Origin: Prorocentrum cordatum
Taxonomy: Eukaryota
Assembly (NCBI GenBank): GCA_963575745.1
Contig: CAUYUJ010000184.1
Location: forward strand, 62,001 to 117,093
Direction: 5' to 3'
DNA: 55,093 nt
The notes beneath the pieces are model-generated. The model was not told the DNA's origin, searched no databases, and saw nothing but the letters and a program-made list of their open reading frames with translations. Positions 29,986 through 47,578 of this stretch are shown one piece after another (position 1 is the stretch's first letter; each line of letters opens with the position of its first letter). A program made the translations under genes and the position numbers.

Positions 29986-29997
29986 TGGTAGCGGAGC
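29986..29997 (+). promoter_or_regulatory. Primer-binding site, initiator tRNA-Met type
   Basis: TGGTAGCGGAGC immediately after the LTR; implies a tRNA 3' end GCUCCGCU-A-CCA, consistent with A1:U72 and close to the canonical TGGTAGCAGAG iMet PBS. Confidence 0.75.
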
Positions 29998-30391
29998 TGG
30001 CCGCACTCTCGTGTGGTCAGCTCTTGCTCTTCTTAGCCTCATATTCTTCGGCACGATCTTCGTGACTACCTACCACCCTGCGCCACCACTCCCAGTACGT
30101 TTACGAGGATCTATCCAAGAGCAAGAAGCAACACGAGAGGTACGACGTCTAGACGACCAGACTGGTACCATATACGCTTCATCATTGCGTTACCACCAAC
30201 CGCTCGGCAACGAGCTAACAGCGCAATACTTGAAGCAGGGGCGGGGAGACCCGCCAGACAGAGCGCCTCGAAGACTCGACAAGGCGCTACCCCAGCGCGA
30301 CAACGCGCATCATAACCGTCCTTCGTTACACATTCTCGGGCTAGTCGTTTTCGCTATTATATGGTTCGCGCTGGGGGCAGCAATCGGACAC

Positions 30392-31705
30392 ATGCGTCGT
30401 GGAGAAAACAGCACCGATGGGCAAACACATGGCCCATATTGGGACCCTCAAGGTAATGTGCCTTTTCGTGAGTAATCTACGAGGTCAACGCATGGCTCAA
30501 CGTTACAAGCGGACGTATGACGCCACAGGCCCAAGCGGCCGCAATACAACGCGGCCTGGGTGGCCTAGCGAGGACACTCGCCATGAGGGTACCGGCTGAC
30601 ATTATAAACTATGGTGCTGACATCGATGGGGTCCACACAGACCCAGTGACCTACATCATGTTTCTCCTAAGCATGAAGTTCGAACGCCTGGAAGATGAGC
30701 GACAGCTCAATTCCGGCACACAACTCATCGACTTCCACGTGCCTCACGGGGAACGAATCGATGTCACCCTTACCCGATTCGAAATGGCCCGGCTTGAGGC
30801 ACAATCGGTGGGATTCGACCTTCCCAACTTCCAACTGCTAACCACTATCTTATTCCGCGCCTTAGGCGTCGGCAACCAGCGAGCCACGCAACTCTTACAG
30901 CCACTCAATCACCAAATGCCCCGAACACAACAACAGTATGATGAGTTGCTGGAGAGGATGCGTTCGATAGGCCACCTATCCGAACGGTCTCCTGGTAACA
31001 TAGGATCTGTGTTTGGAAGGGGAAGGGGATCTGGTAGTGGAAATTTCTACACTACCTTGACTACTGAAGCCCAGCCTGGAAACGGGCCCTCAAGCATATG
31101 GGCCGATGACCCAGGAGAATCCACTGCGTTATTAGCAGGGGATCGATCACAACCAAGCTGGGCAACCAGCCCTCCTTCTAGAGAACCACAACCACACCGT
31201 TCTTTATGGGGGGAATCAAACCCCCTAACCGACGGTGTATCCACCTACTTGGGAGACGAGGATTTCGACTCCGGCACCGATACAGACACTATATCATCAG
31301 ATGGTGTTGAAGCTTTAGATTGGTCAGATATTATGAATATGGATAACGACAATCAGCGTGCTGAGCATTTATTCTGGTTATTACAACAGGCTAAACGAAG
31401 GTGGAGGAGGTTCACACGAAAACCAGTGCGTCGTGTTAGAAGGAGGATACGTAGAAGTTTTAAAGGAAAGGGTAAAGGTAAGCGAGGTCGTCGGAGGTTG
31501 AACGGACGAGGTATCGCGGCATTTCTCCAGAGGCTCTCAGATGAACAACATGATGAGATATTCTTTGGGGGAAAAGGCCGTAGTACGGGCCGTGGAGAGA
31601 CCTCAGGAAAAAGGCAAAGGAAGGCGGGGAAACCCGCGAGGTAGAGACGGCCAGGTTCTCAAATGCCATGAATGTGGTAGTTCCGATCATCTTGTGCGAG
31701 ATTGT
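30392..31705 (+). pseudogene. gag with CCHC zinc knuckle, frameshifted
   Basis: PYWDPQGNVPFRE / IYEVNAWLNVT..QAAAIQRGLGGLAR can be rejoined across a 1-nt loss at ~30475; second frameshift ~31590-31640; CHECGSSDHLVRDC at 31664-31705. Confidence 0.8.
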
Positions 31706-32792
31706 CCAGTGAAGGGAAATGGAAAGGGCAGGTCGACGGAAGTCCATTTTGGCTCAAGTGAACCATCCATTGAGTATCTGAGCCTCCAGGACTTTGAGGC
31801 TATGGAGCAGATATTTTTCACTTGGGTTGTTGGCATGGACAACGTCGACGAGCTCGAGGGGTATGGTCATGGATTGTACGCGTACTACCTCGAGTACGTC
31901 CGCCGGTTCGTTACGGGCAGTAACGAGCTCACTCCCGTGGAACACGGTACGCTGGGAAACCACCCTCTTCTTTTCTTCGACTGGATGTTCGGGAACCCAG
32001 GCAACATCATGGCCTACGAGAGTGACGACGAGGACACCACTATAGAGGCTTCGCCTTCCGAGGTTCAACGGAACCTCGAACCTCCGCCTGAAATCCCGCC
32101 TGGAAACAGGCCGTCTTTGATGGGAGAATATCCCCAGACCACTGAAGACTTAATTGAAATGGAGTCTCAGGCATTTGTTCGGGCCTTCATTGCAGGCGGA
32201 CCAGATACTCTGTTCATACCTCCTGGTTCGCTTGCTCCAGGCGAATATGGACCGCGCACCCTTTTGCAGACCCTCATGAGGATGCATGAGATACTTGTTA
32301 CTGGTTATCCTGAGAGTCAATAACATATCGAAGCTGACATTATGACAGAACAGGATACTGATGCTTGCGGTAGCTCAGAGCTGTTGTTGGCAGCTCTGAC
32401 TCTCATTGACAGCGTGCATCCTCAGGACGTGCAGAGACGCTTGATATGCTCCCGTGGTAGATGGCGTAATGCTCTAGAAATGGCTATTGCTATGCGCGGT
32501 CATGATCTTCCTCCGCCAGGATGGGGTCTCCAGGCGGTGGGAATGAGGCCAAACCATACGGCCATGCGCAACATTGCTGGGCAGCCTGTGCTCGGCAACG
32601 AGCCTGAGCCGACAACAGTGCCTCCTACACCGGGACAGCCGAGCGACGCACAGACGCCGGCTATGCAGGGAAACCTGCCTGTATCAGATACGCCAATGGC
32701 CATCATCATTGGTAGTTCGACATCAGAAGAAGTAGAAGGCGATGGTTGCGGGTTAGATGAGGATGACGTCACCATCCTCATGATGGACGTGA

Positions 32793-35700
32793 AATGGTGA
32801 GGAAGAGGTTGACTTCGATCCTGATGAGTCTGAATCATCATCACCATCGGCACACGCGCCATTTGCGCCGAGCTCCACCCAGCAGGGAGACCTGCCTCCA
32901 TCGGACGATCCATCTGGGATCGCACAGGAGCCTCCTCAGGCACCTCCACCGGGTGCCGCTCCTGCTGCTTCGGCAGCTTCCTCTGATGAGAACACCAGAA
33001 GATCTCGTCCCCATACGCGCGTCAGAGAAGAGCCACATCCACAGGCTCGACTTCCTCGTGAGTGGAGGCAGGCTGGCCCAAAAGAACACGCTCTCAGGAG
33101 AGGTGGCCAGCTACTTCCGCACAACGACCCAAGACGCCGAAAAGGGGAACACTCGGCCTTCGGCAAGGGCAACCCTGCCTATAGGGACAGTGATGGCAAG
33201 GCCATCCGCGGAGGCTATCAGCTTGCAACAAATATCCGCCGCCCTGAATTTCAAGAAGCGCGGACTCAGTTGCGAGATATTATCGCGGCGCGCAAGCAGT
33301 ATAGGCCTCACGCAGCATGCGGACCTTGTTCCCAGCCGTTCCAGAACCACGGGCCAGGATGCCCCGTTGGCAACAACGAAGGCCTGAGCCCCAACAGGGG
33401 CAAAACCCCTCATAAAGAGGGCCATCCGCAACTTATCCCGATGACACAAGAAGAGATTGCAGAAGTGAATCGTCGTCTCTGGATCTTGAGCCACTTGGAT
33501 CCGAAAGAAGAAGAAAAGCCTACCCCGGTTCCAAGGGGACTGGTAGCCATGACCCAGGAAGAGAAAGACGCGCTCTTCAGTCTTCCTAGTATGCGAGGAA
33601 ACTCGCCTGGCGTCTCTAGCCAGTCCCAACAACCAGAACCGACAATCAAGGATGAGGAAAAGGCTCAACGTGTGGCGGAGGACGAGGAGCGTATGCGGAC
33701 AGCAGAAGACCGCACTCGCGAGGCAACTCGCAAGATGTTGGAGGATTCTAGTAAGATCTACATGAAGAGGGCTACGAGGCCCCCACTCCCACTAACTTCG
33801 AAGGCCAAGAGTGGACCCCCGACACCTAAGCCGTCCTCGGTGCCGAAACCGAAGACGAGCCCTCAGGACCCTGGGCCAGACGTGCAGATGGAGGTGCCTC
33901 GAACTGAAACTCCGAGGCCGCCGATTGGCGCAACTCCTACACAAGCGTCTGTGCCCAAGCAGCAACCTCAGGACCCTATGGAGGAACGAAGACGCCCGCC
34001 TAGTCGCAGCAGTTCCATTGCGAAAAGGGCGGCAGCTTTCGAGCGCAGTGGGTATGCACCTGCGCCAGCTTCGCCTGTGGCGGCTCGTTCCAGGAGGTCC
34101 GATGAAGGTGCTATGTCGAGGGGTACCTGGGTGCCGAAGATCAGGGGCAGCGCCAGTCGCGCATCTCCGCGGGGAAACCCGCCAGGCGCTGCCGCCGCAG
34201 CTTCCTCCTCTTCTGGAGCCGCAGCCTCTTCAGCAACAGAGGTTCCGATGCGGGGAAACCCGCCAGTGGTTCAGCTGCACCACCCAGGTGACACGTCCTT
34301 CACTAGTGGGACTCCAAATGTGATCAGGGATAGACTTGCGCTTCGGAAGCTCCCACCGATACGCTCGGTGGATGAGACATTCATGAAGGAATGCAGGAAA
34401 GCTGGAATCCTTCCCACATCCAATGATATTCTCAAACAGCTGAGCAAAGCTCTCAGCAGGATATGCAGACATGCGCCAGACAAGCAACACAATCCTGTGT
34501 GGCGCTTGGAATCTTTCGATGATCATGATGGTTGGGTTAACCTAGTGGAACTCGTGGACCGTTATCCGTGGAACACAGGTCAATCAAGACACGCTGGGTA
34601 TAATCCAAGATATGACGAGGCCAAGATCATCAACGAGCATCTATGTAGGCGCTCGGTTGACCAACTAGCAGCCATCATGATGGCAGTTGTTCATGTCCGT
34701 GAACCAGACGGAGAAGAAAAACAGCGCCTACAGTTCAAGGTGTTGATGCGGGACTCCGGAGAGCCCGCTATCTTCGTCCGCGCCTCTCAGGGGCATTCAT
34801 GGGAATTGAAAGCTCCATGGTCGCTGTACAGCTACATTGTGCTGTGCGACCAACCTGCCGGGAGACCGGCCCCATACCCCGATGTTGCTATGCATGGCAC
34901 TCGATGGCACGCCTTCGAAGGGATTATGTGGCACGGCCTGTCCTGTAGACCTGAGCATAACACGAAGAAAAAGGGGACAGGCCGGTCGCGCATTCACTTC
35001 GTGCCGACAGTTCGCCGCCGTGCCGTGAACAGTGGGTGGGACCCAGACTCAGACATCATCATCTTCGTAGATTGGCGTGAGGCCATACAAGATGGTATGA
35101 AGTTCTGTTGGTCCGATAACGGAGTCCTCTTGTCCGAGGGAGATAACGGTATCATTGAACCATATTACATCTCTCATGTAGAGGACCTGTCCACAGGAAG
35201 GCAATGGCGTAATCCAGAGTATCTGGGGAGCCGCCATGCGCGAGTCTCTGTCGCAACGATGTCTGCTCCTGACAGGTGGGCTGAAGTTGGTACTTCCAGC
35301 GTTAAGTACCAGTGGTCCCGAGACCAAGGGGGCGTTGACCCCCCTATGGGCTACCTCCACAGGGAAGTTGGGGACCACTACAGCCCTACCCAGCTGGGAA
35401 ACCAGCCTGAGATCCATCGGATCTTCATGATTACCGAGAGTGAGGCCGGGAGCGCGGCTCCAAGCCGTGCCCCAAGCCAAGGGCCTAGTGCCGTGTCTTG
35501 GCAGGCCATCAGTACCTCGGACCTGGATCAGATCGCAGCCGCGCTGAACCCTGACCAGGTAGAACAGCTGGCGGACAGGTTATACCAGCAGGATCCCTGG
35601 GCCGCAGGCCAGGGAGCAATGTCCGCTATGGCTGCGAGAAATCGTCAGGCCATGCAGGGAAACCTGCCTACAAGCGGACCTGCTCGGTTTGAACCAATGC

Positions 35701-38573
35701 ATGGAAGCCCTACTCAGAGCATGCACACTCCAAGGGGCATGACTCCATTGGGCACACCACCGGCACAATCCCCATTCGGGACACCTGTCCGCCCTGCCAC
35801 AAACGGCGCTCTCATGGAGAGGAAAGCTGCGGCTAGGGCTGAACACAGCACAGCCCTCCTCAACATGATGCCGCCCGGCACGCCAACGAGTCAGCAGGGA
35901 AACCTGCCTGGCACACCAAGCCACCACAGGGCGGGTGTACCTGACGACTATCGCTCAAGAGTGGCGGCCGCGGTGCAGCAGGTGCAGAGCCATAATCTGC
36001 CTCACCCAAGTGGGCAGAGGTGGAGGCCAGCCTGGTCCTGGGAGCCTGAGGGTCCCAACCCACGGGATCCTGCTCGGCAACGAGCCTTTATCCCGGCGTT
36101 CAATGCCCATCCGAGCATGTCTCAGGGCCAGAGGCCACCACCAGCGCAGATGAACCCGCCATTATACCCTGATGGGTCAAGGGTTCCGAACAAATTTGTT
36201 CGTGAATTGGCGGATCAGATGCATAACCTCACTAATGTGCGCTGCAGTGACCATTCCATGTACCCGCACATGGCCTTCATGCCTTCACCGACATCACCAG
36301 AGGTGGTTGTCCAGCCCACTGCCCATTCAATATCGTCTGGCAGTAGGGGCGTGCCTGACTACATCAGGCAGACGCACCACACTCAGCAGGCATGCTTCAG
36401 GAGAAGGCAGGCGGTGCAAAGCGTACGGGATCAGTCACGTGCAGCTGCACTTGATGTGGTGAGGAACAGGGGCTCACCTTTGCGAGGAAACTCGCCCGCC
36501 GTGACTCCTACCACTTCCATGCCAAATGTCGAAGTGCAGGAGGTGCTGAATCCAACGGGGACACCCCCATCAGCCTTCATGCCCTCCGAGACGGTACTGG
36601 AGAGGCAACGGCGGGTATATCCCAGGGCAGCAGACGTAGAGGTCTTTACTGGGATGGAAGATACCTGCGCGGTATGCCTCGAAGAATTTCAGCCCAGGGA
36701 TAGTGTTTACCGCCTGAGGTGCAATCACCTATTCCACGAGGGATGCTGGAATTCTAATGTGGTGGGCCACGTTGCAAATCAGCGTGAGGGAGATCCCCAG
36801 CAGCCACCATGTGCTATCTGTCGAGCACCTGGCATTATAGCATCATCCTTCCCATGGACCGGCTCCTTTAGTCAGACTCCTGAGCAGTCAGCGAGAGAGC
36901 TGCGGGAGCTGAGGAGCATGGTGGAGGAGATGACGTCTAGGATGCTAGCTATGCAGACAGCTCCGTCACAACAGCAGGGATACCTGCCTGAAGAGGTAAG
37001 GCCGCCTATGGAAACGGGATATTTTGATCAGCTTATCCCGATGACGGCGCCTCAGCAGGGAAACCTGCATGATACTCCTCAGATGTCTCCCCAGAGTGGA
37101 GGCGAGGCTGAGATGTCACTGGGCCCTGATCAGCTGCGTGAATTGCGTGTACGACATTTTCAGAATCAGATGGATAATACGCACACAACATTTATGCTGG
37201 ATGCCAACAATCCTGAAACTGATAGTCCGTCGCTAGACTTATCAGAATCCTCAGTGGCGTCAGCAGCAACAGCAGCCAGGGCCGTCAATATCTCAGCGAC
37301 GAACGAGGAGTTCGAAGAGTGGCTGCGGTACCGGGATCACATCACGAACGAGGGGCTGCAAGACATCGCCCTTCACTCGTACCTAACGTTGATAAGGCGC
37401 ACGACCCGCGAGCAGTATATGAGCATACGTGATGAGTATGCCAACTGGCGGGAGGAGCGTGGCGATCACGCCCAGCACGTGTCGCACTTCCAGTACATTG
37501 ACCTGGCACGCATGGCCGAGAGCGAGTCGCATGCCAGTGTCATGCGGGGTAACCCGCCAGGGAGTACGACTGTGCCGCGGGGAAACCCGCCTACCGACAC
37601 AGCCGACACTTCAGAAACTGTGCACATCAAGCAGCCGAGTAAGACGTTCTTGGATGATGGTGGAAATTCCATACTCATCGACGTCGGTTCGAAGATCAAC
37701 ATCATGGGCGAGAACACGAGCCGTAAGTTCGTCCAGGCTGCCGAGGCACATGGCCGTACTTGTACGTTCGAGCCCCGCTCTCGTTTGAATATCAACGGAG
37801 TGGGAGAAGGGTCGGCCCCAGCGGATACCGTAGGCACATTCAGTATTGCCTGCGAGTACCAGGGGTCGGCCCAACTCGATTCATACAAGACGAACATTGT
37901 GTCAGGCTGTGGCAAGGACCTGCCAGCCATCCTAGGTCTCGATAGTATGCAGGACAAACGCACGATCATCGTGCTTGAACGAGGCCAGGAGAAGCTGATA
38001 TTCCCTGGTAAGGGGCAGGTCAAAATGGAGCTCCCAGAAGGCTCCAAAATCATGCCGACGACAAAGTTGCCGTCAGGGCATCTGTCGATCAGGTGTGATT
38101 GTTTTGGAGCTGCGGGGCAACCCGCCTCGAGCTCAAGCAGCACGTCCTTCCAGACAGTGCTGACAGGCGAGCCGACCCCGGCGCAGGAGCGCAAGCAATT
38201 GCAGGGAAACCTGCCCCAGGGGTTGATGGAGACGCTCGCCAAGGCCACCATGCGAGGCGACAACATCGACGATCTCGAGACGTTCGATTGTTTTGTTGCC
38301 AGGACACTGGCCCTGCATGGTGGTAGTGTACCCATGGACGCTGTACAGTCCCGCCGTAAGATAGTGATGGGATACACTAACCGTGAATTGCATACGGTCA
38401 GCGACGCTAGGTCCAAAGGCGTGCTGAAACAGCTGATGGATAATCCATCGATGCTGACAGCATTTGCGGAGCAATCCGCCTCTGAGGCCACGGCGCGCTG
38501 CAGTGCTGAGCTCCAGCATCTGAGGGAAGCCCAGATGCTGGCAGATATTGTAGGCACATCTTCTTCATCTTGA
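32793..38573 (+). CDS. Copia polyprotein segment: Tpt1/KptA 2'-phosphotransferase + RING-H2 + aspartic protease
   Basis: Frame open from 32793 (track ORF 33270..38573); Tpt1 motifs at 34428-35190; RING at 36666-36824; protease ILIDVGS (D at 37680) and LPAILGLD. Confidence 0.85.
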   Translation, partial: NGEEEVDFDPDESESSSPSAHAPFAPSSTQQGDLPPSDDPSGIAQEPPQAPPPGAAPAASAASSDENTRRSRPHTRVREEPHPQARLPREWRQAGPKEHALRRGGQLLPHNDPRRRKGEHSAFGKGNPAYRDSDGKAIRGGYQLATNIRRPEFQEARTQLRDIIAARKQYRPHAACGPCSQPFQNHGPGCPVGNNEGLSPNRGKTPHKEGHPQLIPMTQEEIAEVNRRLWILSHLDPKEEEKPTPVPRGLVAMTQEEKDALFSLPSMRGNSPGVSSQSQQPEPTIKDEEKAQRVAEDEERMRTAEDRTREATRKMLEDSSKIYMKRATRPPLPLTSKAKSGPPTPKPSSVPKPKTSPQDPGPDVQMEVPRTETPRPPIGATPTQASVPKQQPQDPMEERRRPPSRSSSIAKRAAAFERSGYAPAPASPVAARSRRSDEGAMSRGTWVPKIRGSASRASPRGNPPGAAAAASSSSGAAASSATEVPMRGNPPVVQLHHPGDTSFTSGTPNVIRDRLALRKLPPIRSVDETFMKECRKAGILPTSNDILKQLSKALSRICRHAPDKQHNPVWRLESFDDHDGWVNLVELVDRYPWNTGQSRHAGYNPRYDEAKIINEHLCRRSVDQLAAIMMAVVHVREPDGEEKQRLQFKVLMRDSGEPAIFVRASQGHSWELKAPWSLYSYIVLCDQPAGRPAPYPDVAMHGTRWHAFEGIMWHGLSCRPEHNTKKKGTGRSRIHFVPTVRRRAVNSGWDPDSDIIIFVDWREAIQDGMKFCWSDNGVLLSEGDNGIIEPYYISHVEDLSTGRQWRNPEYLGSRHARVSVATMSAPDRWAEVGTSSVKYQWSRDQGGVDPPMGYLHREVGDHYSPTQLGNQPEIHRIFMITESEAGSAAPSRAPSQGPSAVSWQAISTSDLDQIAAALNPDQVEQLADRLYQQDPWAAGQGAMSAMAARNRQAMQGNLPTSGPARFEPMHGSPTQSMHTPRGMTPLGTPPAQSPFGTPVRPATNGALMERKAAARAEHSTALLNMMPPGTPTSQQGNLPGTPSHHRAGVPDDYRSRVAAAVQQVQSHNLPHPSGQRWRPAWSWEPEGPNPRDPARQRAFIPAFNAHPSMSQGQRPPPAQMNPPLYPDGSRVPNKFVRELADQMHNLTNVRCSDHSMYPHMAFMPSPTSPEVVVQPTAHSISSGSRGVPDYIRQTHHTQQACFRRRQAVQSVRDQSRAAALDVVRNRGSPLRGNSPAVTPTTSMPNVEVQEVLNPTGTPPSAFMPSETVLERQRRVYPRAADVEVFTGMEDTCAVCLEEFQPRDSVYRLRCNHLFHEGCWNSNVVGHVANQREGDPQQPPCAICRAPGIIASSFPWTGSFSQTPEQSARELRELRSMVEEMTSRMLAMQTAPSQQQGYLPEEVRPPMETGYFDQLIPMTAPQQGNLHDTPQMSPQSGGEAEMSLGPDQLRELRVRHFQNQMDNTHTTFMLDANNPETDSPSLDLSESSVASAATAARAVNISATNEEFEEWLRYRDHITNEGLQDIALHSYLTLIRRTTREQYMSIRDEYANWREERGDHAQHVSHFQYIDLARMAESESHASVMRGNPPGSTTVPRGNPPTDTADTSETVHIKQPSKTFLDDGGNSILIDVGSKINIMGENTSRKFVQAAEAHGRTCTFEPRSRLNINGVGEGSAPADTVGTFSIACEYQGSAQLDSYKTNIVSGCGKDLPAILGLDSMQDKRTIIVLERGQEKLIFPGKGQVKMELPEGSKIMPTTKLPSGHLSIRCDCFGAAGQPASSSSSTSFQTVLTGEPTPAQERKQLQGNLPQGLMETLAKATMRGDNIDDLETFDCFVARTLALHGGSVPMDAVQSRRKIVMGYTNRELHTVSDARSKGVLKQLMDNPSMLTAFAEQSASEATARCSAELQHLREAQMLADIVGTSSSS
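34428..35190 (+). other. Tpt1/KptA (RNA 2'-phosphotransferase) domain
   Basis: LSKALSRICRH, DGWV, KQRLQ, VRASQGHS, HGT, GLS, GRSRIHF, SGW, IFVD, SDNGVLLSEGDNGII. Confidence 0.9.
36666..36824 (+). other. RING-H2 zinc finger
   Basis: CAVCLEEF..LRCNHLFHEGCW..CAICR (C3H2C3). Confidence 0.9.
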
Positions 38574-39569: not shown

Positions 39570-42500
39570 TGACTGTTCTCTCCCCCTCCCGACTCTGGCG
39601 ATTGACGCATGTACCCATTCAACCATGACAATGAGTACACAGACCGACGAACAAGACGAGCAAGCTTTACCCGCTGAGTCGCGTATAAAACAGAAGAAGA
39701 GGCTCAAAGCCGAAAAGGAAGCAGGCATCAAGCCTCGCCGCATTAAAAAGCACGTTGAAGACGGAAACGATGATTGCGGCGACGAATTGTCAGGACTCGG
39801 ACAGGATCTTATGGCAACCTGGAGTACTGACGTCCCTGTTGAGCTGATAAGCTCCGACGAGGACGATGACCTGTTCCTTACCCTCCCCACATCTATGCCC
39901 GACACACACGCTAACATATACAGCATAGTTGCTACACTATGCTATGGTCATAACAACTGCGTGGATATGTTGGAGCTTTGTGGCGGTGAGGGTGGCATCT
40001 CAGAGCTTGCCTTCTCAAGGGGACTTTCCTCAGGCGGCAACTTGGACAATACTACATATGTCGACCTGGGAGACCCCTCGGTGCAGCAGGTTATAGACCA
40101 TTACTTTGCTATATGCTACGTACGAGTTGCCATACTGCAACCCAGCTGTCGCACCACAGGACCACCATCCTATTACAACCACAAAGTCAACTACAACACT
40201 TGGGAACAGCACCATAAAGAAGACTTACCACACATAACTTATTGTGGTAAAATTGCTGCAACCCAAGATGACTCTCAGAGGTGGTTTATACGCGAACAAC
40301 CTACAGGAACATGGGTAGATGATATTTCTCCATGGAAAAAGCTTGCCAACCGACCACGCATTACAACCGTGCGCATTGACCAATGCGCTACGGGACTTAG
40401 AGACACGACTGGTGAATATATTAAGAAGTCGACAAATATCACCAGCAACGACGAGACAATTCTTAAACCATTTGAGCGACTCAAGTGCAACGGTCAGCAT
40501 GTGCACGCACAACCGTGCAATACCGAGCTTTCACTGGCACAAAAATACACCCGACGACTGCAGTCTGCCTTCGTGGAAGCTGTATATCTGGCGAAAGCCA
40601 TTGACACCACGCGCGGAAACGCGCCTATAAGTACCGCACATGCTTATCCTACAGACCTTCCCGATCAAGCTGAACCAGGCGAAGGTATGAGACGCATCGG
40701 TGATCGTATCATCCCAAAGGTGGCTACTTGCCCGGCATGCATCGACAACGTCCGAAAGGACAGTCCCAGCCATAACAGAGACCCTACGCAGTGTAAATAT
40801 CATGATTCCATCTCTGTATATTGGCCATGTCCAGCATGTCAGAGGGATCTTACGAGAAGCAAGGGTGTTAAGAACCACCTCGATACCGAACCTGGTAAAC
40901 GTCGTTTTGCTGAACCATTTAAATTACCAGACGACCACGACCCCGAAGGCAGAACCGTGCCAGCTTGGTGGAAACCCTTACCTAAACCTGGTGAGGGCCA
41001 AGCCTCAGCTTCAGGTGGCCGTCAAGGCGCACACGCCAGGCCACCACAACCACGATCCTTCGGCAACGTCGATCCGACATCCGGTGCCAGCAGCTACGAC
41101 ATGCTACGAGACGCCCCCGAGCGTGGAAACACGCCTTCTGCGTCTTCTAGCGAAGTGCCACAGGTAGCGGCCCGCCGCGGCCGTCTACAAGGCGTACCAC
41201 CACCTCCAGACGCAGTTAACACAGGGGACCAACTACGGAGAGCTACAAGGAACCCTCTTGCCTCCACCGGCTCTGGGGCTCCACGACTACCCGACTGGGC
41301 GAGATTCGACATCCAACACAGTCTACAGAGTCTCCGTAGTCACGAACCTCATGTCGTGAAAAAGGAACTCCGAAAACTGCATCTGCGATGGCATCATGCG
41401 AAGGAGCCAAAGATGAGGCTAATCCTCGAAAAGGTGGGGCTTGATAACGTTCGGCTGAACATGATCAAGGAAGTCTGTGATACCTGTCGGGAATGTAGAG
41501 CATGGGAACGTCCAGGAAACTCAACACTACCATCGGTAAGCCTTCCTGGTAACTGGCTCGATGAAGGGGAAATGGGCCTCATGTTTTACAAGAAACGGAC
41601 CATATTTCATATTATGGATCGTTGTATTCGCCTGGCAGCAGGCCTAGAAATTTCCGACAGAGAACGTGACGCTATCATCGACGCCTACCACTATTGCTGG
41701 ATTGCCTATCACGGACCCTTCATAGTTTTATTCTCAGACGGAGAAGGCGCCCTGAATAACGATACCGCTAAAACCATGATAGCCAATAAGGGCACGGAAC
41801 TTCGTATCCGAGCACCTGGCCAACACGCGACTTCAATTGAGTCACGAAGCGGCATTCTCAGAGGCGTCCTCCACATGATTGAGGAAGAATTGAATAGACA
41901 CAACATCCCTGTTGTATTCACTAGAGTATTGGCGGAAGGCATCTTCGTTACCAATGCGTTTACGTTTTATAACGGAGTAGTGCCATATCAGGCACACACA
42001 GGACGTCAGCCCTCCTTCCTTCCTGATCTCGATACCCTTGACTTTCCCAAGGGACCCGAGACTTCAGGACACGAACGAGAACGTCGTGTAAGGGAAGTCA
42101 GCCTAGAAGCTATAACTCAGGCTACTGCTGTGGCCAAGACAAATCGGGCTCTTAGGGCTAAGACGACTCCTGATGGTGCTCGCCTCTACTCATCAGGGGA
42201 TTTGGTCGACTACCACCGACCTACTGCCACCAAGGACGACCATGGAGGCTGGAATGGCCCATTCCCGGTGATCCGAAATGTGCCTGAAAGAGGACATATT
42301 GTTGTCAAGGCAGGATCTCGTGAGGTAATTGTGATGTATCCTGATGCTCGTCACACACTATACATCGAATGTCTCCTCACACGGGAACTTGGCATGGATA
42401 ATATGGCCATGCAAGCCGTCCTTGCTTATGTGGCACACCTCAGCGCAGGGAAACCTGCCAAAGTTTTCGGGTATATTCCCGATTACAAGGGAAACCTTAA

Positions 42501-45075
42501 TCTGTCAGACGACAGCAAGTTCCACCCGCGCGTGCACTTAGCACTACAGTATCTCGTACGAAATTACTTCCGAGTAGAACATGTAGTAGCAGTTCGATTG
42601 GCTAAGAGTGTGTCAAGCCTATCTGCAGTAAAGTACGCCACCGGGTCTACGCTGATCCACTATGACAACGACATCAGCCCGGCGTTCCACTATTACGAAT
42701 GTGTGGGCACTGGCTTAAACATTTCTCAGATCACTGGTAGCACTCACTCCAGACTGATTCAATGCTTGACTTCACGTGTCCCTTCCTTAGGATTTCACGA
42801 CGATTTGGCTAAATATCAGCATCCAAGCAACACGTCTGGAGAATACGTGTCGCCTGGAAACAGGCCTTCTCCAGACACACCAGATGCTTCATCGCCGCGC
42901 GAAGGCCGTCTGTCGACAATCTATGAGGAAAATGAGGAACACCATATCGAAGCTATGATGCTGGAAGAGTGGTACGACGAGCTACGTATGGACCTTCATC
43001 CTACGACGATTACCGATGATTATCTTTATTGCGTCCCAACAACTATGCTGCCCGACCAATGTGTTTTGGTTTCAGCATTTGTGGACGAAGATGATATTAC
43101 ATCATCAGATATGCTCGGAGACGAGCCGAAATCATGTGAGTCCTGTCTAGTATCTCTTTGTTCAAACACAACCGACGAGAGCTACTCTCTAGACAGTGAT
43201 GAATACGGTCCTTACGTTGAACTATGCTTTACATCAGAAATGTCAAAAATAGTGTTGGATCAGACTCAACTTGCACAGCTCGATACCGATATGGTCGCAA
43301 CGATGAGAGTATATGTACCCTCTGCTGCTAAACGTGCTGTGGTTGTCAAAGAAGATGATCTACTGACCAAAGCCGACATAGCAGCACATCCAAAGGAGGT
43401 TAGTGAAGCCTTATATACTGAGCTCAAAATCTGGATTGATAACCGATGCTTTGAGATGTACGATTTGTCCAAAGCTTCCAACATCATGACGTCCAGATAC
43501 GTATACAAGTGGAAGTTCGTAAAGATGGGTACCGAGAGCGTTAAAACCATTCGTCTCAGACTGGTCCTTTGTGGATTTATGGATACTGAGGCTTTTGGTG
43601 TGGAAACATTCTCGGGAACCGCCCGAAGGCAGCCCCAACGACTCCTGGCAAGTGAAGCGGCATGTCATCCAGAGTGGATCTTAGCATCCATGGATATCGA
43701 TAAGGCGTTCTTAAAGGGTTTGACCTATGAGGAACTTGCCCATGCCACCGGCGAGGAAACTCGCATGGTTTGCTTTACTCTTCCACCAGGAAGCGCTCAG
43801 GTACTTCGTACCTTACCCGGCTTCTCATCCTACGACGAAAGTCGACACTGTCTTAGATGCCTCAAACCAGGAACGGGTACTAAGGACGCTCCAAGAGCGT
43901 TCTCTCTCAAACTTGGTACGACCACACGAGCTATAGGACTTACACCGACCAGCTACGACCCTGAATTTGAATTCAGCCAAGACCTTCTGACGGCCAAACA
44001 TGTCGATGACATTAACATGACAGGTCTAGAGAAAAATATAGACGACTATGTACAACGTGTCGAAAAGGTATTTGGCAAATGCAAGCTCAACAAGCACACA
44101 TATACGAACTGCGCCGTTCGCTACACTAAGAGTGATCAGGGAGATGTGATCATGGACCAGGACGAGTATATTAAACAACTACGTCCTATCACACACCCAG
44201 AACTCACAGGAGCGGCGGCCGACGCCAAAGCCACGAAACTCATTACCGACATGTTCGTCAGCCTGCGAGGAGCCCTCGCCTATGCCCTTCTTACCCAAAT
44301 CTGGCTTATGGTATATGTGGTCTCTCCTCAGAAAATTCAAGAGCCCACCAATTTGCAAGTCAGACGTTTGAACGCTGTGACGCGAAAGCTGATCAGCAGT
44401 CCGAAACGCATCACCTTCCCTCGGATGAAGCCGACGAATGAAGTTGACATCCATAGCGATTCGGGGTATCGGAAGCTTACCGGGGAGGAGGATGACGAGA
44501 CCAAGGGCTACGGCATACGCGGGGCCAACGTACTACGGCGAGGAAACTCGCCCCAAGGCAAGTCCGTCGTTCACCTCTGTGACGGACTATGCAAATCACA
44601 CCGATTACAGGTGAGGTCCAGTTATGCTGCGGAGGCACTTGCAGCCGCACATAACCTTGATGAGTGTTACCCTACGCTCATTACTCTCCACGAGCTTAAG
44701 GCAGGGGCTTTGACTCCACGACAACTACGAGACATGCGTGAAGTTGGAGGCCTTGCTATCAAAGTCTCTCTTACCATAGACGCCGAGTCCGTCTACAAGT
44801 CTTTATCAAGCAGGGATCTCAAAATACCTACAGAACGGACTCTGCTTGGACATATCAGCTGGATACGTGAGCTCATGGATATAGGTATAGTACATAATGT
44901 GCAATGGTGTGATACTAGGGATATGACCGCAGATGGGCATACAAAGGGAAGCATCGATCGGGAGCTGCTTCTGGAAGTGATGTCAGGCACTCAGTCATTT
45001 AAGTATGACGTGAAGCAATTTGTTCCCTTTCGGGGTCCCGAGGACAGAGACAAACCTAAGTCTAATCAATTTTAG
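39394..45075 (+). CDS. Copia pol: cytosine-methyltransferase-like domain, integrase, RT, RNase H
   Basis: MLELCGGEGG..QPSC..REQP..DQC..KKST (~39961-40590). INT: HLRWHH..CDTCREC, FSDGEG, IESR. RT: SRYVYKWK, RLRLVLCGF, DIDKAFLKG, KDAPRAF, HVDD (43999-44010). RH: SDSGY, SSYAAEA, IDAES, MTADGHTK. Confidence 0.92.
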   Translation: MRLFRISRLPINQQDMIGMHHYLQGLPTSVLGCIGNPRLVLLGSEPTQSPQKHRRVIIDDCSLPLPTLAIDACTHSTMTMSTQTDEQDEQALPAESRIKQKKRLKAEKEAGIKPRRIKKHVEDGNDDCGDELSGLGQDLMATWSTDVPVELISSDEDDDLFLTLPTSMPDTHANIYSIVATLCYGHNNCVDMLELCGGEGGISELAFSRGLSSGGNLDNTTYVDLGDPSVQQVIDHYFAICYVRVAILQPSCRTTGPPSYYNHKVNYNTWEQHHKEDLPHITYCGKIAATQDDSQRWFIREQPTGTWVDDISPWKKLANRPRITTVRIDQCATGLRDTTGEYIKKSTNITSNDETILKPFERLKCNGQHVHAQPCNTELSLAQKYTRRLQSAFVEAVYLAKAIDTTRGNAPISTAHAYPTDLPDQAEPGEGMRRIGDRIIPKVATCPACIDNVRKDSPSHNRDPTQCKYHDSISVYWPCPACQRDLTRSKGVKNHLDTEPGKRRFAEPFKLPDDHDPEGRTVPAWWKPLPKPGEGQASASGGRQGAHARPPQPRSFGNVDPTSGASSYDMLRDAPERGNTPSASSSEVPQVAARRGRLQGVPPPPDAVNTGDQLRRATRNPLASTGSGAPRLPDWARFDIQHSLQSLRSHEPHVVKKELRKLHLRWHHAKEPKMRLILEKVGLDNVRLNMIKEVCDTCRECRAWERPGNSTLPSVSLPGNWLDEGEMGLMFYKKRTIFHIMDRCIRLAAGLEISDRERDAIIDAYHYCWIAYHGPFIVLFSDGEGALNNDTAKTMIANKGTELRIRAPGQHATSIESRSGILRGVLHMIEEELNRHNIPVVFTRVLAEGIFVTNAFTFYNGVVPYQAHTGRQPSFLPDLDTLDFPKGPETSGHERERRVREVSLEAITQATAVAKTNRALRAKTTPDGARLYSSGDLVDYHRPTATKDDHGGWNGPFPVIRNVPERGHIVVKAGSREVIVMYPDARHTLYIECLLTRELGMDNMAMQAVLAYVAHLSAGKPAKVFGYIPDYKGNLNLSDDSKFHPRVHLALQYLVRNYFRVEHVVAVRLAKSVSSLSAVKYATGSTLIHYDNDISPAFHYYECVGTGLNISQITGSTHSRLIQCLTSRVPSLGFHDDLAKYQHPSNTSGEYVSPGNRPSPDTPDASSPREGRLSTIYEENEEHHIEAMMLEEWYDELRMDLHPTTITDDYLYCVPTTMLPDQCVLVSAFVDEDDITSSDMLGDEPKSCESCLVSLCSNTTDESYSLDSDEYGPYVELCFTSEMSKIVLDQTQLAQLDTDMVATMRVYVPSAAKRAVVVKEDDLLTKADIAAHPKEVSEALYTELKIWIDNRCFEMYDLSKASNIMTSRYVYKWKFVKMGTESVKTIRLRLVLCGFMDTEAFGVETFSGTARRQPQRLLASEAACHPEWILASMDIDKAFLKGLTYEELAHATGEETRMVCFTLPPGSAQVLRTLPGFSSYDESRHCLRCLKPGTGTKDAPRAFSLKLGTTTRAIGLTPTSYDPEFEFSQDLLTAKHVDDINMTGLEKNIDDYVQRVEKVFGKCKLNKHTYTNCAVRYTKSDQGDVIMDQDEYIKQLRPITHPELTGAAADAKATKLITDMFVSLRGALAYALLTQIWLMVYVVSPQKIQEPTNLQVRRLNAVTRKLISSPKRITFPRMKPTNEVDIHSDSGYRKLTGEEDDETKGYGIRGANVLRRGNSPQGKSVVHLCDGLCKSHRLQVRSSYAAEALAAAHNLDECYPTLITLHELKAGALTPRQLRDMREVGGLAIKVSLTIDAESVYKSLSSRDLKIPTERTLLGHISWIRELMDIGIVHNVQWCDTRDMTADGHTKGSIDRELLLEVMSGTQSFKYDVKQFVPFRGPEDRDKPKSNQF

Positions 45076-45445
45076 TCTGTCCTTGTTGCCCTCGCGGTCC
45101 AGTTTGCCAGCACGGGCGCCTACTATAAAGGCGCCCCTCTAGCTGCTCGGAAACGAGCCTTATATTTCACGCCTGGCAACGAGCCGGCTTCGTACAACTC
45201 AGGCTCTTTGCCTTAATACACATTTGCTTGGTGAGGTATGGCCTAATTTTGGCTTACCTCTAACTGAGCCGATAGCCCTTCATTGTTTGAAGGGGCTGTC
45301 CTGTATTTGCGTGAAATACTTTGCGAGGAAACTCGCCTTACAGTCTGGTGTTTGACCAGACTGTACGCACTGTTTTCTTTTCTTTGCAAACAGTCGTGCG
45401 CGCGATCTTTGCGTGCGACTATGCTCTCCGTCTCCTCCCCTCCCG

Positions 45446-47546: not shown

Positions 47547-47578
<32 letters not shown>

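What the first reader, a model, noticed from the sequence alone, without database searches (positions are those of the whole stretch)
30202..45336. More than 30 dispersed, covarying GNRA-tetraloop hairpins across the Copia internal region
The 14-nt motif GC-NN-G-[GAAA/GCAA/GAGA/GTAA]-C-N'N'-GC, usually followed by C, starts at 30202, 30241, 31074, 31157, 31624, 32098, 32590, 32665, 32882, 33593, 34169, 34250, 34857, 35393, 35654, 35894, 36072, 36482, 36974 (GATA loop), 37055, 37544, 37577, 38112, 38201, 38644, 39260, 40611, 41121, 42445, 42852, 43751, 44538, 45145 and 45323. NN takes about 10 different values (AG, GG, GA, CT, TC, TG, CG, AC, GC, GT) and N'N' always pairs, twice by G-U. All lie on the sense strand, in different reading frames (xGNxP, GEETR, AGKPA) and in the 3' UTR. 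I saw only one imperfect match outside the element. This looks like a selected RNA structural code superimposed on the coding sequence: multiple packaging signals, boxB-like protein-binding or antitermination sites, or tetraloop-receptor compaction of an unusually long genomic RNA. The Arg/Lys-rich gag tract (KRRWRRFTRKPVRRVRRRIRR) is a candidate ligand (inference).
Basis: partly seen in the sequence, partly recalled or inferred. Interest (0 to 1): 0.9.

Follow-up and report, generated by a model that had tools for sequence, protein, structure and literature searches.

The report
Hairpin code inside a giant retrotransposon
A 16-kb Copia-type jumping gene carries about 37 small, same-shaped RNA hairpins written into its protein-coding sequence, relatives keep them with matching changes on both sides of the stem, and they most likely act as docking sites for a protein that handles the element's RNA.

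Summary
All 34 listed sites exist and three more were found. The pattern GCNNGGNRACNNGC has 40 matches against 2.69 expected; 36 lie on the sense strand of one LTR element and none on its antisense strand. The two free stem positions pair in 35 of 36 sites, using 10 stem variants. Synonymous-codon shuffles give 4.7 hairpins against 36 observed.

The element is a young Copia-type retrotransposon with 254-bp LTRs, a 5-bp target duplication, a PBS and one long polyprotein frame that is broken in this copy.

Metagenome relatives carry the same G-GNRA-C hairpins on the sense strand (86 against 18 antisense in 99.7 kb) with lineage-specific stems. More distant relatives do not (19 against 15). Homologous sites keep the hairpin through changes on both sides. 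The encoded peptide differs between lineages (QGNLP against AGQPA). At least three sites arose by substitution without indels.

So these are selected sense-strand RNA structures, not peptide motifs or inserted mini-elements. Their function is inferred. Binding by Gag/NC as dispersed packaging signals is my leading reading at about 0.4. No RNA or binding data were available.

The parts
29727..29731 (+). 5-bp target-site duplication GCCTG, left copy
   Evidence: Read directly. The same 5 bases follow the 3' LTR.
29732..29985 (+). 5' LTR
   Evidence: 256-nt direct repeat at 98% identity. Boundaries were trimmed to the target duplication.
29986..30000 (+). Primer-binding-site-like TGGTAGCGGAGCTGG directly after the 5' LTR
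   Evidence: Read. Its role as a tRNA 3'-end complement is inferred.
29747..45075 (+). Polyprotein frame in seven stop-to-stop pieces (29747-30475, 30472-31644, 31502-32323, 32324-32800, 32793-38573, 38574-39569, 39376-45075): gag, NC, Tpt1, RING, protease, unknown domain, integrase-like, RT/RNase H
   Evidence: Relative L018 has one open frame of 2653 codons over gag to protease. At four of the frame changes, other copies differ from this one by an indel.
31393..31455 (+). Arg-rich tract KRRWRRFTRKPVRRVRRRIRR in Gag (candidate RNA-binding motif)
   Evidence: Conserved in L018 and in 36 of 36 gag homologs examined.
31664..31705 (+). CCHC zinc knuckle (NC)
   Evidence: Pfam zf-CCHC, E 2.5e-4, 21.4 bits, above the cutoff of 20.8. 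Coordinates.
34434..35141 (+). Tpt1/KptA RNA 2'-phosphotransferase domain
   Evidence: Pfam PF01885, E 6.6e-22.
36660..36755 (+). RING-H2 finger
   Evidence: Pfam zf-RING_11, E 2.8e-8.
43444..44085 (+). Copia-type reverse transcriptase (RVT_2)
   Evidence: Pfam PF07727, E 6.3e-6, 26.4 bits, below the curated 31.6. Homologs carry PF07727.
30202..30215 (+). Hairpin GCTCG-GCAA-CGAGC
   Evidence: In-context pair probability 1.0.
30241..30254 (+). Hairpin GCGGG-GAGA-CCCGC; forms a pair with 30202 (39 nt start to start)
   Evidence: (0.99).
31074..31087 (+). Hairpin GCCTG-GAAA-CGGGC (one G-U pair)
   Evidence: L018 has a hairpin at the same gag site in another frame. Predicted probability 0.0.
31157..31170 (+). 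Hairpin GCTGG-GCAA-CCAGC
   Evidence: 0.22.
31624..31637 (+). Hairpin GCGGG-GAAA-CCCGC
   Evidence: 1.0.
32098..32111 (+). Hairpin GCCTG-GAAA-CAGGC
   Evidence: 0.65.
32590..32603 (+). Hairpin GCTCG-GCAA-CGAGC
   Evidence: 0.02.
32665..32678 (+). Hairpin GCAGG-GAAA-CCTGC
   Evidence: 0.96.
32882..32895 (+). Hairpin GCAGG-GAGA-CCTGC
   Evidence: 0.97.
33593..33606 (+). Hairpin GCGAG-GAAA-CTCGC
   Evidence: 0.99.
33718..33731 (+).
   Evidence: 0.96.
34169..34182 (+). Hairpin GCGGG-GAAA-CCCGC
   Evidence: 0.82.
34250..34263 (+). Hairpin GCGGG-GAAA-CCCGC
   Evidence: 0.90. One contig of run X2 joins 34266 to 37600, just after this hairpin and its twin at 37577.
34857..34870 (+). Hairpin GCCGG-GAGA-CCGGC
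   Evidence: 0.01.
35393..35406 (+). Hairpin GCTGG-GAAA-CCAGC
   Evidence: 0.89.
35654..35667 (+). Hairpin GCAGG-GAAA-CCTGC
   Evidence: 1.0.
35894..35907 (+). Hairpin GCAGG-GAAA-CCTGC
   Evidence: 0.39.
36072..36085 (+). Hairpin GCTCG-GCAA-CGAGC
   Evidence: 0.91.
36482..36495 (+). Hairpin GCGAG-GAAA-CTCGC
   Evidence: 1.0.
36974..36987 (+). Hairpin GCAGG-GATA-CCTGC (GNNA variant loop)
37055..37068 (+). Hairpin GCAGG-GAAA-CCTGC
   Evidence: 1.0.
37544..37557 (+). Hairpin GCGGG-GTAA-CCCGC; forms a pair with 37577 (33 nt)
   Evidence: (0.99).
37577..37590 (+). Hairpin GCGGG-GAAA-CCCGC
   Evidence: 0.99.
38112..38125 (+). Hairpin GCGGG-GCAA-CCCGC
   Evidence: 0.64.
38201..38214 (+). Hairpin GCAGG-GAAA-CCTGC
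   Evidence: 0.21.
38644..38657 (+). Hairpin GCGGG-GTAA-CCTGC (one G-U pair)
   Evidence: 0.05.
39260..39273 (+). Hairpin GCACG-GAAA-CGTGC
   Evidence: 0.79.
40611..40624 (+). Hairpin GCGCG-GAAA-CGCGC
   Evidence: 0.99. The peptide RGNAP aligns with RGDTP in P0006.
41121..41134 (+). Hairpin GCGTG-GAAA-CACGC; site shared with other lineages
   Evidence: 0.98. L003 has TCGTG-GAGA-CACGA at the aligned place. The xG[ND]x' column is visible.
42445..42458 (+). Hairpin GCAGG-GAAA-CCTGC inside the conserved peptide AGKPA
   Evidence: L001 has GCGGG-GAAA-CCTGC. 14 other loci with the related peptide have no hairpin, and there is no indel.
42852..42865 (+). Hairpin GCCTG-GAAA-CAGGC
   Evidence: 0.99. 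L024 and L025 have TCACG-GAAA-CGTGA at the aligned place.
43113..43126 (+).
   Evidence: 13 of 15 aligned proteins have xG[ND]x' in these columns, and 10 of the 13 have complementary-compatible pairs. L008 has GCATG-GAAA-CGTGC.
43751..43764 (+). Hairpin GCGAG-GAAA-CTCGC inside the conserved RT-region peptide (GEETR, where relatives have GEKER)
   Evidence: Made by substitution, with no indel. 13 of 15 aligned proteins have GE[KQN]ER.
44538..44551 (+). Hairpin GCGAG-GAAA-CTCGC
   Evidence: L001, L002 and L018 have GCGTG-G[AC]AA-CACGC at the same codons, a change on both sides of the stem.
45145..45158 (+). Hairpin GCTCG-GAAA-CGAGC in the 3' untranslated region
   Evidence: 0.96.
45171..45184 (+). 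Imperfect hairpin GCCTG-GCAA-CGAGC (one mismatch) in the 3' untranslated region
   Evidence: (0.0).
45323..45336 (+). Hairpin GCGAG-GAAA-CTCGC in the 3' untranslated region
   Evidence: 0.94.
45444..45697 (+). 3' LTR
45698..45702 (+). Target-site duplication GCCTG, right copy

Best explanation
The 14-nt units are selected RNA hairpins on the sense (genomic/messenger) RNA of a Copia-type retrotransposon. Each has a 5-bp stem closed by G-C and a GNRA tetraloop. They are written into whatever reading frame and peptide the local protein tolerates, and also into the untranslated ends.

Shown:
- They are strand-specific.
- They are far above every control.
- They covary.
- They are kept at homologous sites in related elements through changes on both sides of the stem.
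- They diverge more slowly than their surroundings.
- They encode different peptides in different lineages.

Inferred:
- They are multiple dispersed binding sites for a protein that handles the element's own RNA.
- The most likely protein is the nucleocapsid part of Gag (Arg-rich tract plus CCHC knuckle).
- Many moderate-affinity sites along the 16-kb RNA, together with a hairpin pair in the leader, would mark it for selective packaging and condensation into virus-like particles.
- Lineage-specific stems would make the mark private to each lineage.
For: Enrichment and strand bias:
- 36 sense and 0 antisense matches, against 2.69 expected window-wide.
- 36 of 76 sense GGNRAC hexamers are fully paired, against 0 of 25 antisense and 6 of 145 outside the element.

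Not a by-product of the protein:
- 300 synonymous-codon shuffles give 4.69 +/- 2.0 (max 14) against 36 observed. For the strict form they give 1.44 +/- 1.1 (max 5) against 33.
- Frame use is 25/5/4 (offset 2/0/1) in the window, mostly xGNxP. In L018 it is 3/11/4, mostly AGQPA.
- One gag site holds a hairpin in both elements but in different frames.

Covariation: 99.4% of cells are paired, the score is 0.54 against 0.09, and 0 of 500 shuffles are as high.

Relatives:
- Sense/antisense GNRA hairpins are 86/18 in the first 28 loci (99.7 kb) and 19/15 in the last 28 (110.9 kb).
- L018 has 20 matches against 0.25 expected.
- L025 has 10 identical-stem matches against 0.00 expected.
- The peptide signature is concentrated in one clade of 24 rows with SH-like support 100. 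13 of those 24 have two or more, against 2 of 70 outside.

Homologous sites:
- 44538 has GCGAG/CTCGC where L001, L002 and L018 have GCGTG/CACGC.
- At 43113, 13 of 15 aligned lineages carry xG[ND]x', with L-E, R-T, H-V and P-R pairs.
- 43751 and 42445 arose by substitution inside conserved peptides.

Slower divergence: 0 of 28 hairpin positions differ against 180 of 1083 others (L018 against L002). For L001 against L002 it is 1 of 34 against 138 of 1128. For L024 against L025 it is 3 of 112, all three at positions that fall in the loop of the 14-mer, against 136 of 3485.

Folding: dG is -7.0 to -9.3 kcal/mol for 35 of 36, and 28 of 36 have pair probability of at least 0.5 in a 214-nt context.

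Placement fits a packaging role:
- A hairpin pair lies about 215 nt after the PBS (30202 and 30241).
- Hairpins lie between the pol end and the gag start in L018 and L025.
- Gag carries an Arg-rich tract and a CCHC knuckle.

Recalled, not tested: Arg-rich peptides bind GNRA-type hairpins in the lambda N-boxB system. Dispersed stem-loops with a shared loop motif act as packaging signals in ssRNA viruses.
Against: - No RNA or binding data were obtained. No listed sequencing run that holds the element is on record as RNA.
- The Arg-rich tract is conserved in all 36 gag homologs examined. Most of them show almost no hairpin-type peptides, so there is no ligand-specific co-variation.
- 8 of 36 hairpins have a predicted in-context probability below 0.5. 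Ten unrelated GC-rich 5-bp hairpins in the element fold nearly as well (0.65 against 0.75).
- Spacing is irregular: mean 432 nt, CV 0.74.
- Identical stems within a lineage (L025: 10 of 10) could come from copying between sites rather than from a sequence-specific reader.
- Recalled: retroviral NC knuckles prefer exposed guanosines. GNRA loops are better known for RNA-RNA contacts.
Confidence: 0.4

Rival explanations
1. The hairpins recruit a host RNA-binding factor (for nuclear export, stability, translation or escape from silencing of a long unspliced RNA) rather than the element's own Gag. Lineage-specific stems would then reflect different hosts.
For: This reading fits all the evidence for selection on a sense-strand structure equally well. 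The lack of co-variation between the Gag Arg-rich tract and the presence of hairpins is neutral to mildly favourable. Stems differ between metagenome lineages that may sit in different hosts.
Against: In the window's 39 kb of non-element DNA there are only 6 of 145 paired GGNRAC sites. A host-wide use of the motif is therefore not visible here. No host factor is identified. Host assignment of the metagenome loci is unknown.
Confidence: 0.2
2. The hairpins act during reverse transcription. They could be pause or template-switch points that promote recombination between co-packaged RNAs. They could be RNase H-resistant internal plus-strand primers. They could also form stable GNRA-type mini-hairpins in plus-strand DNA.
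For: - No polypurine tract lies next to the 3' LTR; the run there is pyrimidine-rich.
- Many 5' arms plus loops are purine-rich, for example GCAGGGAAAC.
- One contig of run X2 joins 34266 to 37600, just after two identical hairpins.
- Sense-only polarity fits plus-strand nucleic acid of either chemistry.
Against: - Stems such as GCTCG/CGAGC, GCCTG/CAGGC and TCACG/CGTGA are not purine-rich.
- A single joint in one contig is an anecdote.
- Strict conservation of the GNRA loop and of pairing is not needed for a primer.
- The last hairpin is about 107 nt from the 3' LTR and so cannot define U3.
Confidence: 0.12
3. The hairpins are selfish or mutational products with no function for the element. 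They would be a 14-15-nt palindromic cassette spread in frame by insertion, local duplication or gene conversion, like in-frame palindromic repeats known in some bacteria.
For: - Stems are near-identical within some lineages. L025 has 10 of 10 TCACG/CGTGA, and L018 has 7 copies of GCGGGGCAACCTGC.
- Each element has a preferred frame.
- Tandem pairs sit 30-39 nt apart: 12 of 90 spacings, although L024 and L025 are near-duplicates.
- A 3-codon length difference occurs at the shared gag site.
Against: - Three sites lie in ungapped, conserved protein alignments and differ from relatives only by substitutions (42445, 43751, 44538).
- The window has 10 stem variants, all still pairing, which decay of copies would not give.
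- Hairpin positions diverge more slowly than their flanks.
- Homologous sites persist across lineages with different stems.
Confidence: 0.1
4. The GNRA loops dock into tetraloop receptors elsewhere in the RNA and so compact the long genome by RNA-RNA tertiary contacts.
For: GAAA is the commonest loop, at 23 of 41 strict-stem sites. Recalled: GAAA loops bind the 11-nt receptor.
Against: The receptor half CCTAAG occurs 3 times against 4.3 expected. Only 3 CCTAAG/TATGG pairs lie within 300 nt of each other. Loops vary freely among GAAA, GCAA, GAGA and GTAA, which have different receptor preferences (recalled).
Confidence: 0.05
5. The repeated unit is a peptide motif (xGNxP) selected at the protein level, and the palindrome is incidental.
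For: 25 of 36 window hairpins share one frame.
Against: - x and x' covary as complementary codons: Q-L, R-P, R-S, P-R, L-E, H-V.
- 9 hairpins use other frames, and 3 lie in the 3' untranslated region.
- L018 encodes AGQPA from the same hairpin.
- Codon shuffles that keep the protein lose the hairpins.
Confidence: 0.02

Closest known systems
Dispersed packaging signals of ssRNA viruses (MS2-type stem-loops; packaging-signal-mediated assembly). Recalled. Also seen as search listings and the first lines of abstracts: PMC12377776 (MS2) and bioRxiv 10.64898/2026.06.18.733228 (coronavirus).
   Same: Many short stem-loops with a shared loop motif and variable stems. They are scattered through coding sequence on the genomic strand and kept in relatives.
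   Different: Here the carrier is an LTR retrotransposon, not a virus. The units are unusually uniform (5 bp plus GNRA) and unusually numerous. Binding to the capsid protein is untested.
Lambda/P22 boxB hairpin bound by the Arg-rich motif of protein N (recalled)
   Same: A 5-bp GC-rich stem, a GNRA-type loop fold, and an Arg-rich peptide with a Trp (KRRWRR) encoded by the same element.
   Different: boxB has a pentaloop and acts in transcription antitermination at one or two sites. Here there are true tetraloops at about 37 sites. No Rfam family matched. The Arg-rich tract also exists in hairpin-poor relatives.
Retroviral and Ty1 leader packaging/dimerisation stem-loops bound by Gag/NC. HIV-1 SL3 is recalled. 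For Ty1, PMC6844567 was seen only as a listing and the first lines of its abstract.
   Same: An LTR element with a CCHC nucleocapsid, and a hairpin pair in the leader after the PBS.
   Different: Known signals are concentrated in the 5' leader and the start of gag. Here most units are spread over the whole 15-kb internal region and the 3' end.
In-frame palindromic repeat insertions in protein genes (Rickettsia palindromic elements; recalled)
   Same: Palindromic units sit inside open reading frames without breaking them.
   Different: Those are 100-150-bp insertions. Here three tested sites arose by substitution without indels, and the stems covary.

Membership tests
Ty1/Copia LTR retrotransposon | Direct LTRs flanked by a short target-site duplication | tested here: met
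   254-bp LTRs at 98% identity. GCCTG lies on both sides.
Ty1/Copia LTR retrotransposon | Copia-type reverse transcriptase, with integrase upstream of RT | tested here: met
   RVT_2 hit at E 6.3e-6, below the curated cutoff. Homologs carry PF07727 and PF00665. The HHCC-like motif at P0002 residues 669-707 precedes the RT at 1357-1570.
Ty1/Copia LTR retrotransposon | Gag with a nucleocapsid zinc knuckle, a PBS after the 5' LTR, and a polypurine tract before the 3' LTR | tested here: inconclusive
   The CCHC knuckle and a PBS-like TGGTAGCGGAGC are present. No polypurine tract is seen; the run before the 3' LTR is pyrimidine-rich.
GNRA tetraloop hairpin | Four-base loop G-N-R-A closed by a Watson-Crick pair on a paired stem | tested here: met
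   35 of 41 strict-stem sites have GNRA loops. The other six loops are GACA x2, GATA, ACAA, GAAG and GCAG. The stem is paired in 99.4% of cells.
GNRA tetraloop hairpin | The loop adopts the GNRA fold (sheared G-A pair) in RNA | not testable with these tools
   Only nearest-neighbour folding was possible.
Dispersed packaging signals | Multiple stem-loops with a common loop motif spread over the genomic strand and conserved in relatives | tested here: met
Dispersed packaging signals | Specific binding by the cognate capsid/nucleocapsid protein, and a packaging defect when the signals are removed | not testable with these tools
   No RNA-protein tool was available. No RNA run is listed.
boxB / N-type antitermination hairpin | Pentaloop with a GNRA-like fold in a nut site; match to the curated RNA family | tested here: not met
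   The loops are tetraloops. The Rfam scan of 29500-46000 at E up to 1 gave only one unrelated weak snoRNA hit.
GAAA tetraloop with 11-nt receptor | Receptor motif (CCUAAG...UAUGG) present in numbers that match the loops | tested here: not met
   CCTAAG occurs 3 times against 4.3 expected.
In-frame mobile palindromic insertions | The unit is present as an insertion relative to homologs that lack it | tested here: not met
   Sites 42445, 43751 and 44538 align without gaps to relatives that lack the hairpin. One gag site does show a 3-codon length difference.

The most novel reading that the evidence does not exclude
Each lineage of this retrotransposon clade carries a private RNA address code. 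Dozens of GNRA hairpins have stem sequences that evolve in concert with an element-encoded reader, so that particles package only their own lineage's RNA among co-resident relatives. Much of the roughly 2,000 extra codons of low-conservation linker in these giant elements would then exist mainly as an open-frame carrier for RNA signals rather than for the protein it encodes.
Probability: 0.2. Interest if true: 0.85.

Novelty: new variant of a known kind. Interest (0 to 1): 0.74.

Why it matters
How LTR retrotransposons pick out their own RNA is poorly understood outside a few models. This family offers an unusually clean signal.

- The structural unit is short and countable.
- It is repeated about 37 times per element.
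- It is conserved with changes on both sides of the stem across a clade of marine-protist elements.
- Its sequence differs by lineage.

That makes specificity, co-evolution of protein and RNA, and the cost of overlaying RNA structure on coding sequence directly testable. The tests need only small synthetic RNAs and one recombinant protein.

The family also shows that long 'disordered linker' coding regions can be shaped by selection on RNA.

Six full-text searches found no description of GNRA hairpin arrays in an LTR retrotransposon. The search 'LTR retrotransposon' + GNRA + Gag + 'genomic RNA' returned 0 papers. Subscription journals are not covered by these searches.

Tried and rejected
- Own genome: none is held. 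No genome-wide scan or paralog alignment was therefore possible.
- Earlier findings: four look-ups returned nothing.
- RNA evidence: no RNA holder is listed among the 24 runs. The four runs laid are contigs, so they show neither expression nor RNA ends.
- Variant table: of the 2,032 differences in the read-laying output, only 40 are printed. None falls inside a hairpin, against about 1.2 expected. This is too few to use.
- Tpt1-RING half against the word-indexed protein database: no hit. The exhaustive HMMER search gave mostly short fragments and ordinary Tpt1 proteins. Among my loci Tpt1 was found only in L018, and among the pol homologs only in P0101. Co-occurrence of Tpt1 with hairpins could therefore not be tested.
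- Arg-rich tract against hairpin signature across 36 gag homologs: no clear relation.
- Tetraloop receptor: not enriched.
- Regular spacing: none (CV 0.74).
- Distributed -1 frameshifting: 11 of 13 GGGAAAC heptamers lie in the slippery register G_GGA_AAC. The dominant hairpins of L018 and L025 lack any slippery heptamer, so I rejected this as a general explanation.
- DNMT-retrotransposon paper PMC5890265: term search only. It states that the Symbiodinium Copia elements lack a DNMT domain, and it does not mention hairpins.
- Peptide-motif reading: rejected.
Full report
**The observation**

The pattern GCNNGGNRACNNGC leaves the two inner stem positions free. It has 40 matches in the 55-kb window, against 2.69 expected from dinucleotide shuffles (largest 8; 0 of 100 shuffles reach 40). 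Of the 40 matches, 36 are on the + strand between 30202 and 45336, and none is on the - strand there.

Outside the element there is one perfect match (3576, - strand) and three imperfect ones.

Other counts agree:
- A broader scan for any 5-bp stem with a tetraloop finds 40 GNRA hairpins on the sense strand of the element and 3 on the antisense strand.
- Of the 76 sense-strand GGNRAC hexamers in the element, 36 have four further pairs. The figures are 0 of 25 antisense, and 4 of 73 and 2 of 72 on the two strands outside the element.
- On the alignment of the 36 pattern matches, the two free pairs take 10 combinations. 99.4% of cells pair, against 77.8% in shuffles, and the covariation score is 0.54 against 0.09. 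In both cases 0 of 500 shuffles are as high. Sliding the 3' partner by 1-3 columns drops pairing to 24-48%.

**What carries the hairpins**

The span is one LTR retrotransposon.
- It has 254-bp LTRs at 98% identity (29732-29985 and 45444-45697).
- A 5-bp duplication GCCTG lies on both sides.
- A PBS-like TGGTAGCGGAGC follows the 5' LTR.
- Its G+C content is about 52%, in flanks of 63-73%.

On the + strand, seven stop-to-stop pieces add up to one polyprotein. In order it holds:
- gag with an Arg-rich tract and a CCHC knuckle;
- a Tpt1/KptA domain (E 6.6e-22);
- a RING-H2 finger;
- a protease-like region;
- an unknown domain;
- an integrase-like HHCC region;
- a Copia-type RT.

The relative L018 has a single open frame of 2653 codons over the gag-to-protease part. 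At four of this copy's frame changes, other copies in public runs differ by an indel. The breaks are therefore private damage to a young copy. The family is highly repeated in the runs laid, with 30,489 contigs laid in run X1.

**Not a peptide motif and not a by-product of the protein**

In the window, 25 hairpins sit so that they read xGNxP, 5 read A-G-K/Q-P-A, 4 read x-E-E/A-T-R, and 3 lie after the last stop codon. The residues x and x' follow codon complementarity: Q-L, R-P, R-S, P-R, L-E, H-V, R-A and R-T.

I shuffled synonymous codons over the whole polyprotein, which keeps the protein and the codon usage. This leaves 4.69 +/- 2.0 hairpins (max 14 in 300 shuffles) against 36 observed. 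For the strict GC..G/C..GC form it leaves 1.44 +/- 1.1 (max 5) against 33.

In L018 the same kind of hairpin is mostly read in another frame: 11 of 18 as AGQPA and 3 of 18 as xGNx. At one gag site both elements have a hairpin. The window reads AQPGNGP and L018 reads ATAGQPA, with a 3-codon length difference. The nucleotide structure is the constant; the peptide is not.

**Relatives**

The pol half has 96 homologs in public protein sets. They include Symbiodiniaceae proteins among the distant ones.

Protein evidence:
- Tetrapeptides xG[N/D]x' whose outer residues can be encoded by complementary codons number 84 of 1029. Shuffles give 51.7 +/- 6.4 (max 74).
- These peptides are concentrated in the closest homologs.
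- On a FastTree of the RT/RNase H region (94 rows), they fall in one clade of 24 rows with SH-like support 100. 13 of those 24 have two or more, against 2 of 70 outside.

DNA evidence from 56 metagenome loci:
- The first 28 loci of the listing (99.7 kb) have 86 sense and 18 antisense GNRA hairpins.
- The last 28 loci (110.9 kb) have 19 and 15.
- The split follows listing order, so it is rough. A few short high-identity pieces sit in the second group.

Stems are lineage-specific:
- L018 has mostly GC[GA]GG-GCAA-CCTGC (20 pattern matches against 0.25 expected).
- L024 and L025 have TCACG-GRRA-CGTGA (10 of 10 in L025 against 0.00 expected).
- L003, L020, L021 and L035 have TCGTG-GAGA-CACGA.
- L007 and L008 have GCA[CT]G-GAAA-CGTGC.

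The C2-G13 pair, the G5-C10 closing pair and the GNRA loop are common to all lineages.

**Homologous sites**

- Site 44538: the window has GCGAG/CTCGC. L001, L002 and L018 have GCGTG/CACGC at the same codons, a change on both sides of the stem.
- Site 43113: 13 of 15 aligned proteins carry xG[N/D]x' in the same columns. The pairs are L-E (5), H-V (2), P-R (2) and R-T (1), plus three that are not strictly complementary. L008 shows GCATG-GAAA-CGTGC there.
- Site 43751: this lies in a highly conserved RT-region peptide. 13 of 15 proteins read GE[KQN]ER without a hairpin. The window reads GEETR with a perfect hairpin, and its closest homolog reads GEATR. There is no indel.
- Site 42445: the peptide xGKxP is widely conserved, but only the window and L001 encode it as a hairpin.

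These cases show hairpins created and maintained by substitution. That argues against a purely insertional origin.

Hairpin positions also diverge more slowly than their surroundings:
- L018 against L002: 0 of 28 hairpin positions differ, against 180 of 1083 others.
- L001 against L002: 1 of 34, against 138 of 1128.
- L024 against L025: 3 of 112, all three at positions that fall in the loop of the 14-mer, against 136 of 3485.

The numbers are small, and the first two comparisons share hairpins.

**Physical plausibility and anatomy**

Each perfect unit folds at -7.0 to -9.3 kcal/mol. Within 100-nt flanks, 28 of 36 have mean pair probability of at least 0.5 (mean 0.75). Ten unrelated GC-rich 5-bp hairpins of the element reach 0.65, so context folding is not distinctive.

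Spacing is irregular, with a mean of 432 nt and CV 0.74. Across the window and the close loci, 15 of 90 spacings are 60 nt or less, against 7.1 +/- 2.4 for random placement. Twelve of those lie at 30-39 nt. L024 and L025 are near-duplicates, so this is a modest signal.

Hairpins are sparse in the best-conserved protein regions. The gaps 39260-40611 and 41121-42445 are examples. Five of the seven pol-half sites lie in columns of below-average conservation.

A hairpin pair lies in the leader about 215 nt after the PBS. L018 and L025 have four or five hairpins between the pol end and the gag start.

No Rfam family matches. The classical GAAA receptor is not enriched.

**How it most likely works**

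Shown: a sense-strand, structure-constrained, positionally conserved, clade-specific set of GNRA hairpins under purifying selection.

Inferred: they are read as RNA by a protein. I favour the element's own Gag/NC at 0.4. The reasons are these:
- The element encodes an Arg-rich tract with a Trp next to a CCHC knuckle.
- Arg-rich peptides are known to read GNRA-type hairpins and the adjacent stem groove (lambda N-boxB; recalled).
- Dispersed stem-loops with a common loop are an established way to mark long RNAs for encapsidation (recalled; listings and first lines of abstracts).
- An element-encoded reader explains why stems are uniform within a lineage and differ between lineages.

Against this reading:
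- The Arg-rich tract is equally present in relatives with no hairpin signature.
- No RNA or binding data exist. No RNA holder is listed.

The rivals are recruitment of a host factor (0.2), a role in reverse transcription or plus-strand DNA (0.12), non-functional spread of a palindromic cassette (0.1), tetraloop-receptor compaction (0.05) and a peptide motif (0.02).

**Novelty**

Six full-text searches found no description of such an array in an LTR retrotransposon. The four-term search returned 0 papers. Subscription journals are not covered.

I file the finding as a new variant of a known kind, namely dispersed cis-acting RNA signals on a packaged genome. The function is unproven.

Noticed in passing
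window 34434-35141 and 36660-36755: The Copia polyprotein contains a Tpt1/KptA RNA 2'-phosphotransferase domain (E 6.6e-22) and a RING-H2 finger between NC and protease. L018 shares the Tpt1 domain. In a search for 'LTR retrotransposon' with Tpt1/KptA/phosphotransferase, none of the 10 listed papers contains the retrotransposon term. Why a retroelement would need to remove RNA 2'-phosphates or ADP-ribosylate nucleic-acid ends is unexplained.
   Followed up: partly
window 45410-45443: No polypurine tract lies next to the 3' LTR. The sense strand there is a pyrimidine run. Plus-strand priming may be unusual in this family.
   Followed up: no
window about 30473, 31500-31644, 32321-32323, about 32793, 38571-38573, 39376-39569: This copy's polyprotein frame is broken by four frame changes and two in-frame stops. 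At four of these places other copies in public runs differ by an indel, and L018 has one open frame.
   Followed up: partly
window 31627-42489: 11 of 13 GGGAAAC heptamers lie in the register G_GGA_AAC, a classical -1 slippery pattern (recalled). Ten of them are inside hairpins. The -1 frame stops within 3-40 codons. This is probably a by-product of the preferred frame, since the hairpins of L018 and L025 lack it.
   Followed up: partly
window 30202/30241, 37544/37577; L003, L017, L018, L024, L025: Hairpins often come in tandem pairs 30-39 nt apart, always a multiple of 3 (12 of 90 spacings). This could reflect a dimeric reader or local duplication.
   Followed up: partly
window 34266 to 37600 (run X2): One contig (depth 27.7) skips 3,333 nt. 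Its ends lie just after two identical hairpins (34250 and 37577), and a hairpin-like stretch sits at the joint. This looks like a deletion or template switch between hairpins.
   Followed up: no
window 29747-30475: The frame is open from inside the 5' LTR through the PBS into gag. It encodes two hydrophobic, membrane-helix-like stretches. The second aligns with the N-terminus of Symbiodiniaceae homologs. The start codon may lie in the LTR.
   Followed up: no
window 38574-39569 and 39376-40600: Two conserved regions between protease and integrase have no firm Pfam family; there is only a weak DUF5956 hit at E 4.6e-4. The second has a glycine-rich LELCGG.GG motif that reminds me of SAM-dependent methyltransferases (recalled, untested). 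Both are conserved in hairpin-less relatives too.
   Followed up: no
L018 3390, 6364, 7707: The three minus-strand pattern matches in L018 read, on the sense strand, as the usual stems with a UCAC loop. A second loop type may exist.
   Followed up: no
window 28586-29700 and 47279-47650: Long (CCT)n-type arrays lie just upstream of the insertion, and (GGA)n-type arrays about 1.6 kb downstream, so the same repeat appears in opposite orientation on the two sides.
   Followed up: no
window 3576-3589 (- strand): A single perfect GCCTG-GAAA-CAGGC hairpin lies in host DNA far from the element, within a longer GC-rich palindrome. This is compatible with chance.
   Followed up: no
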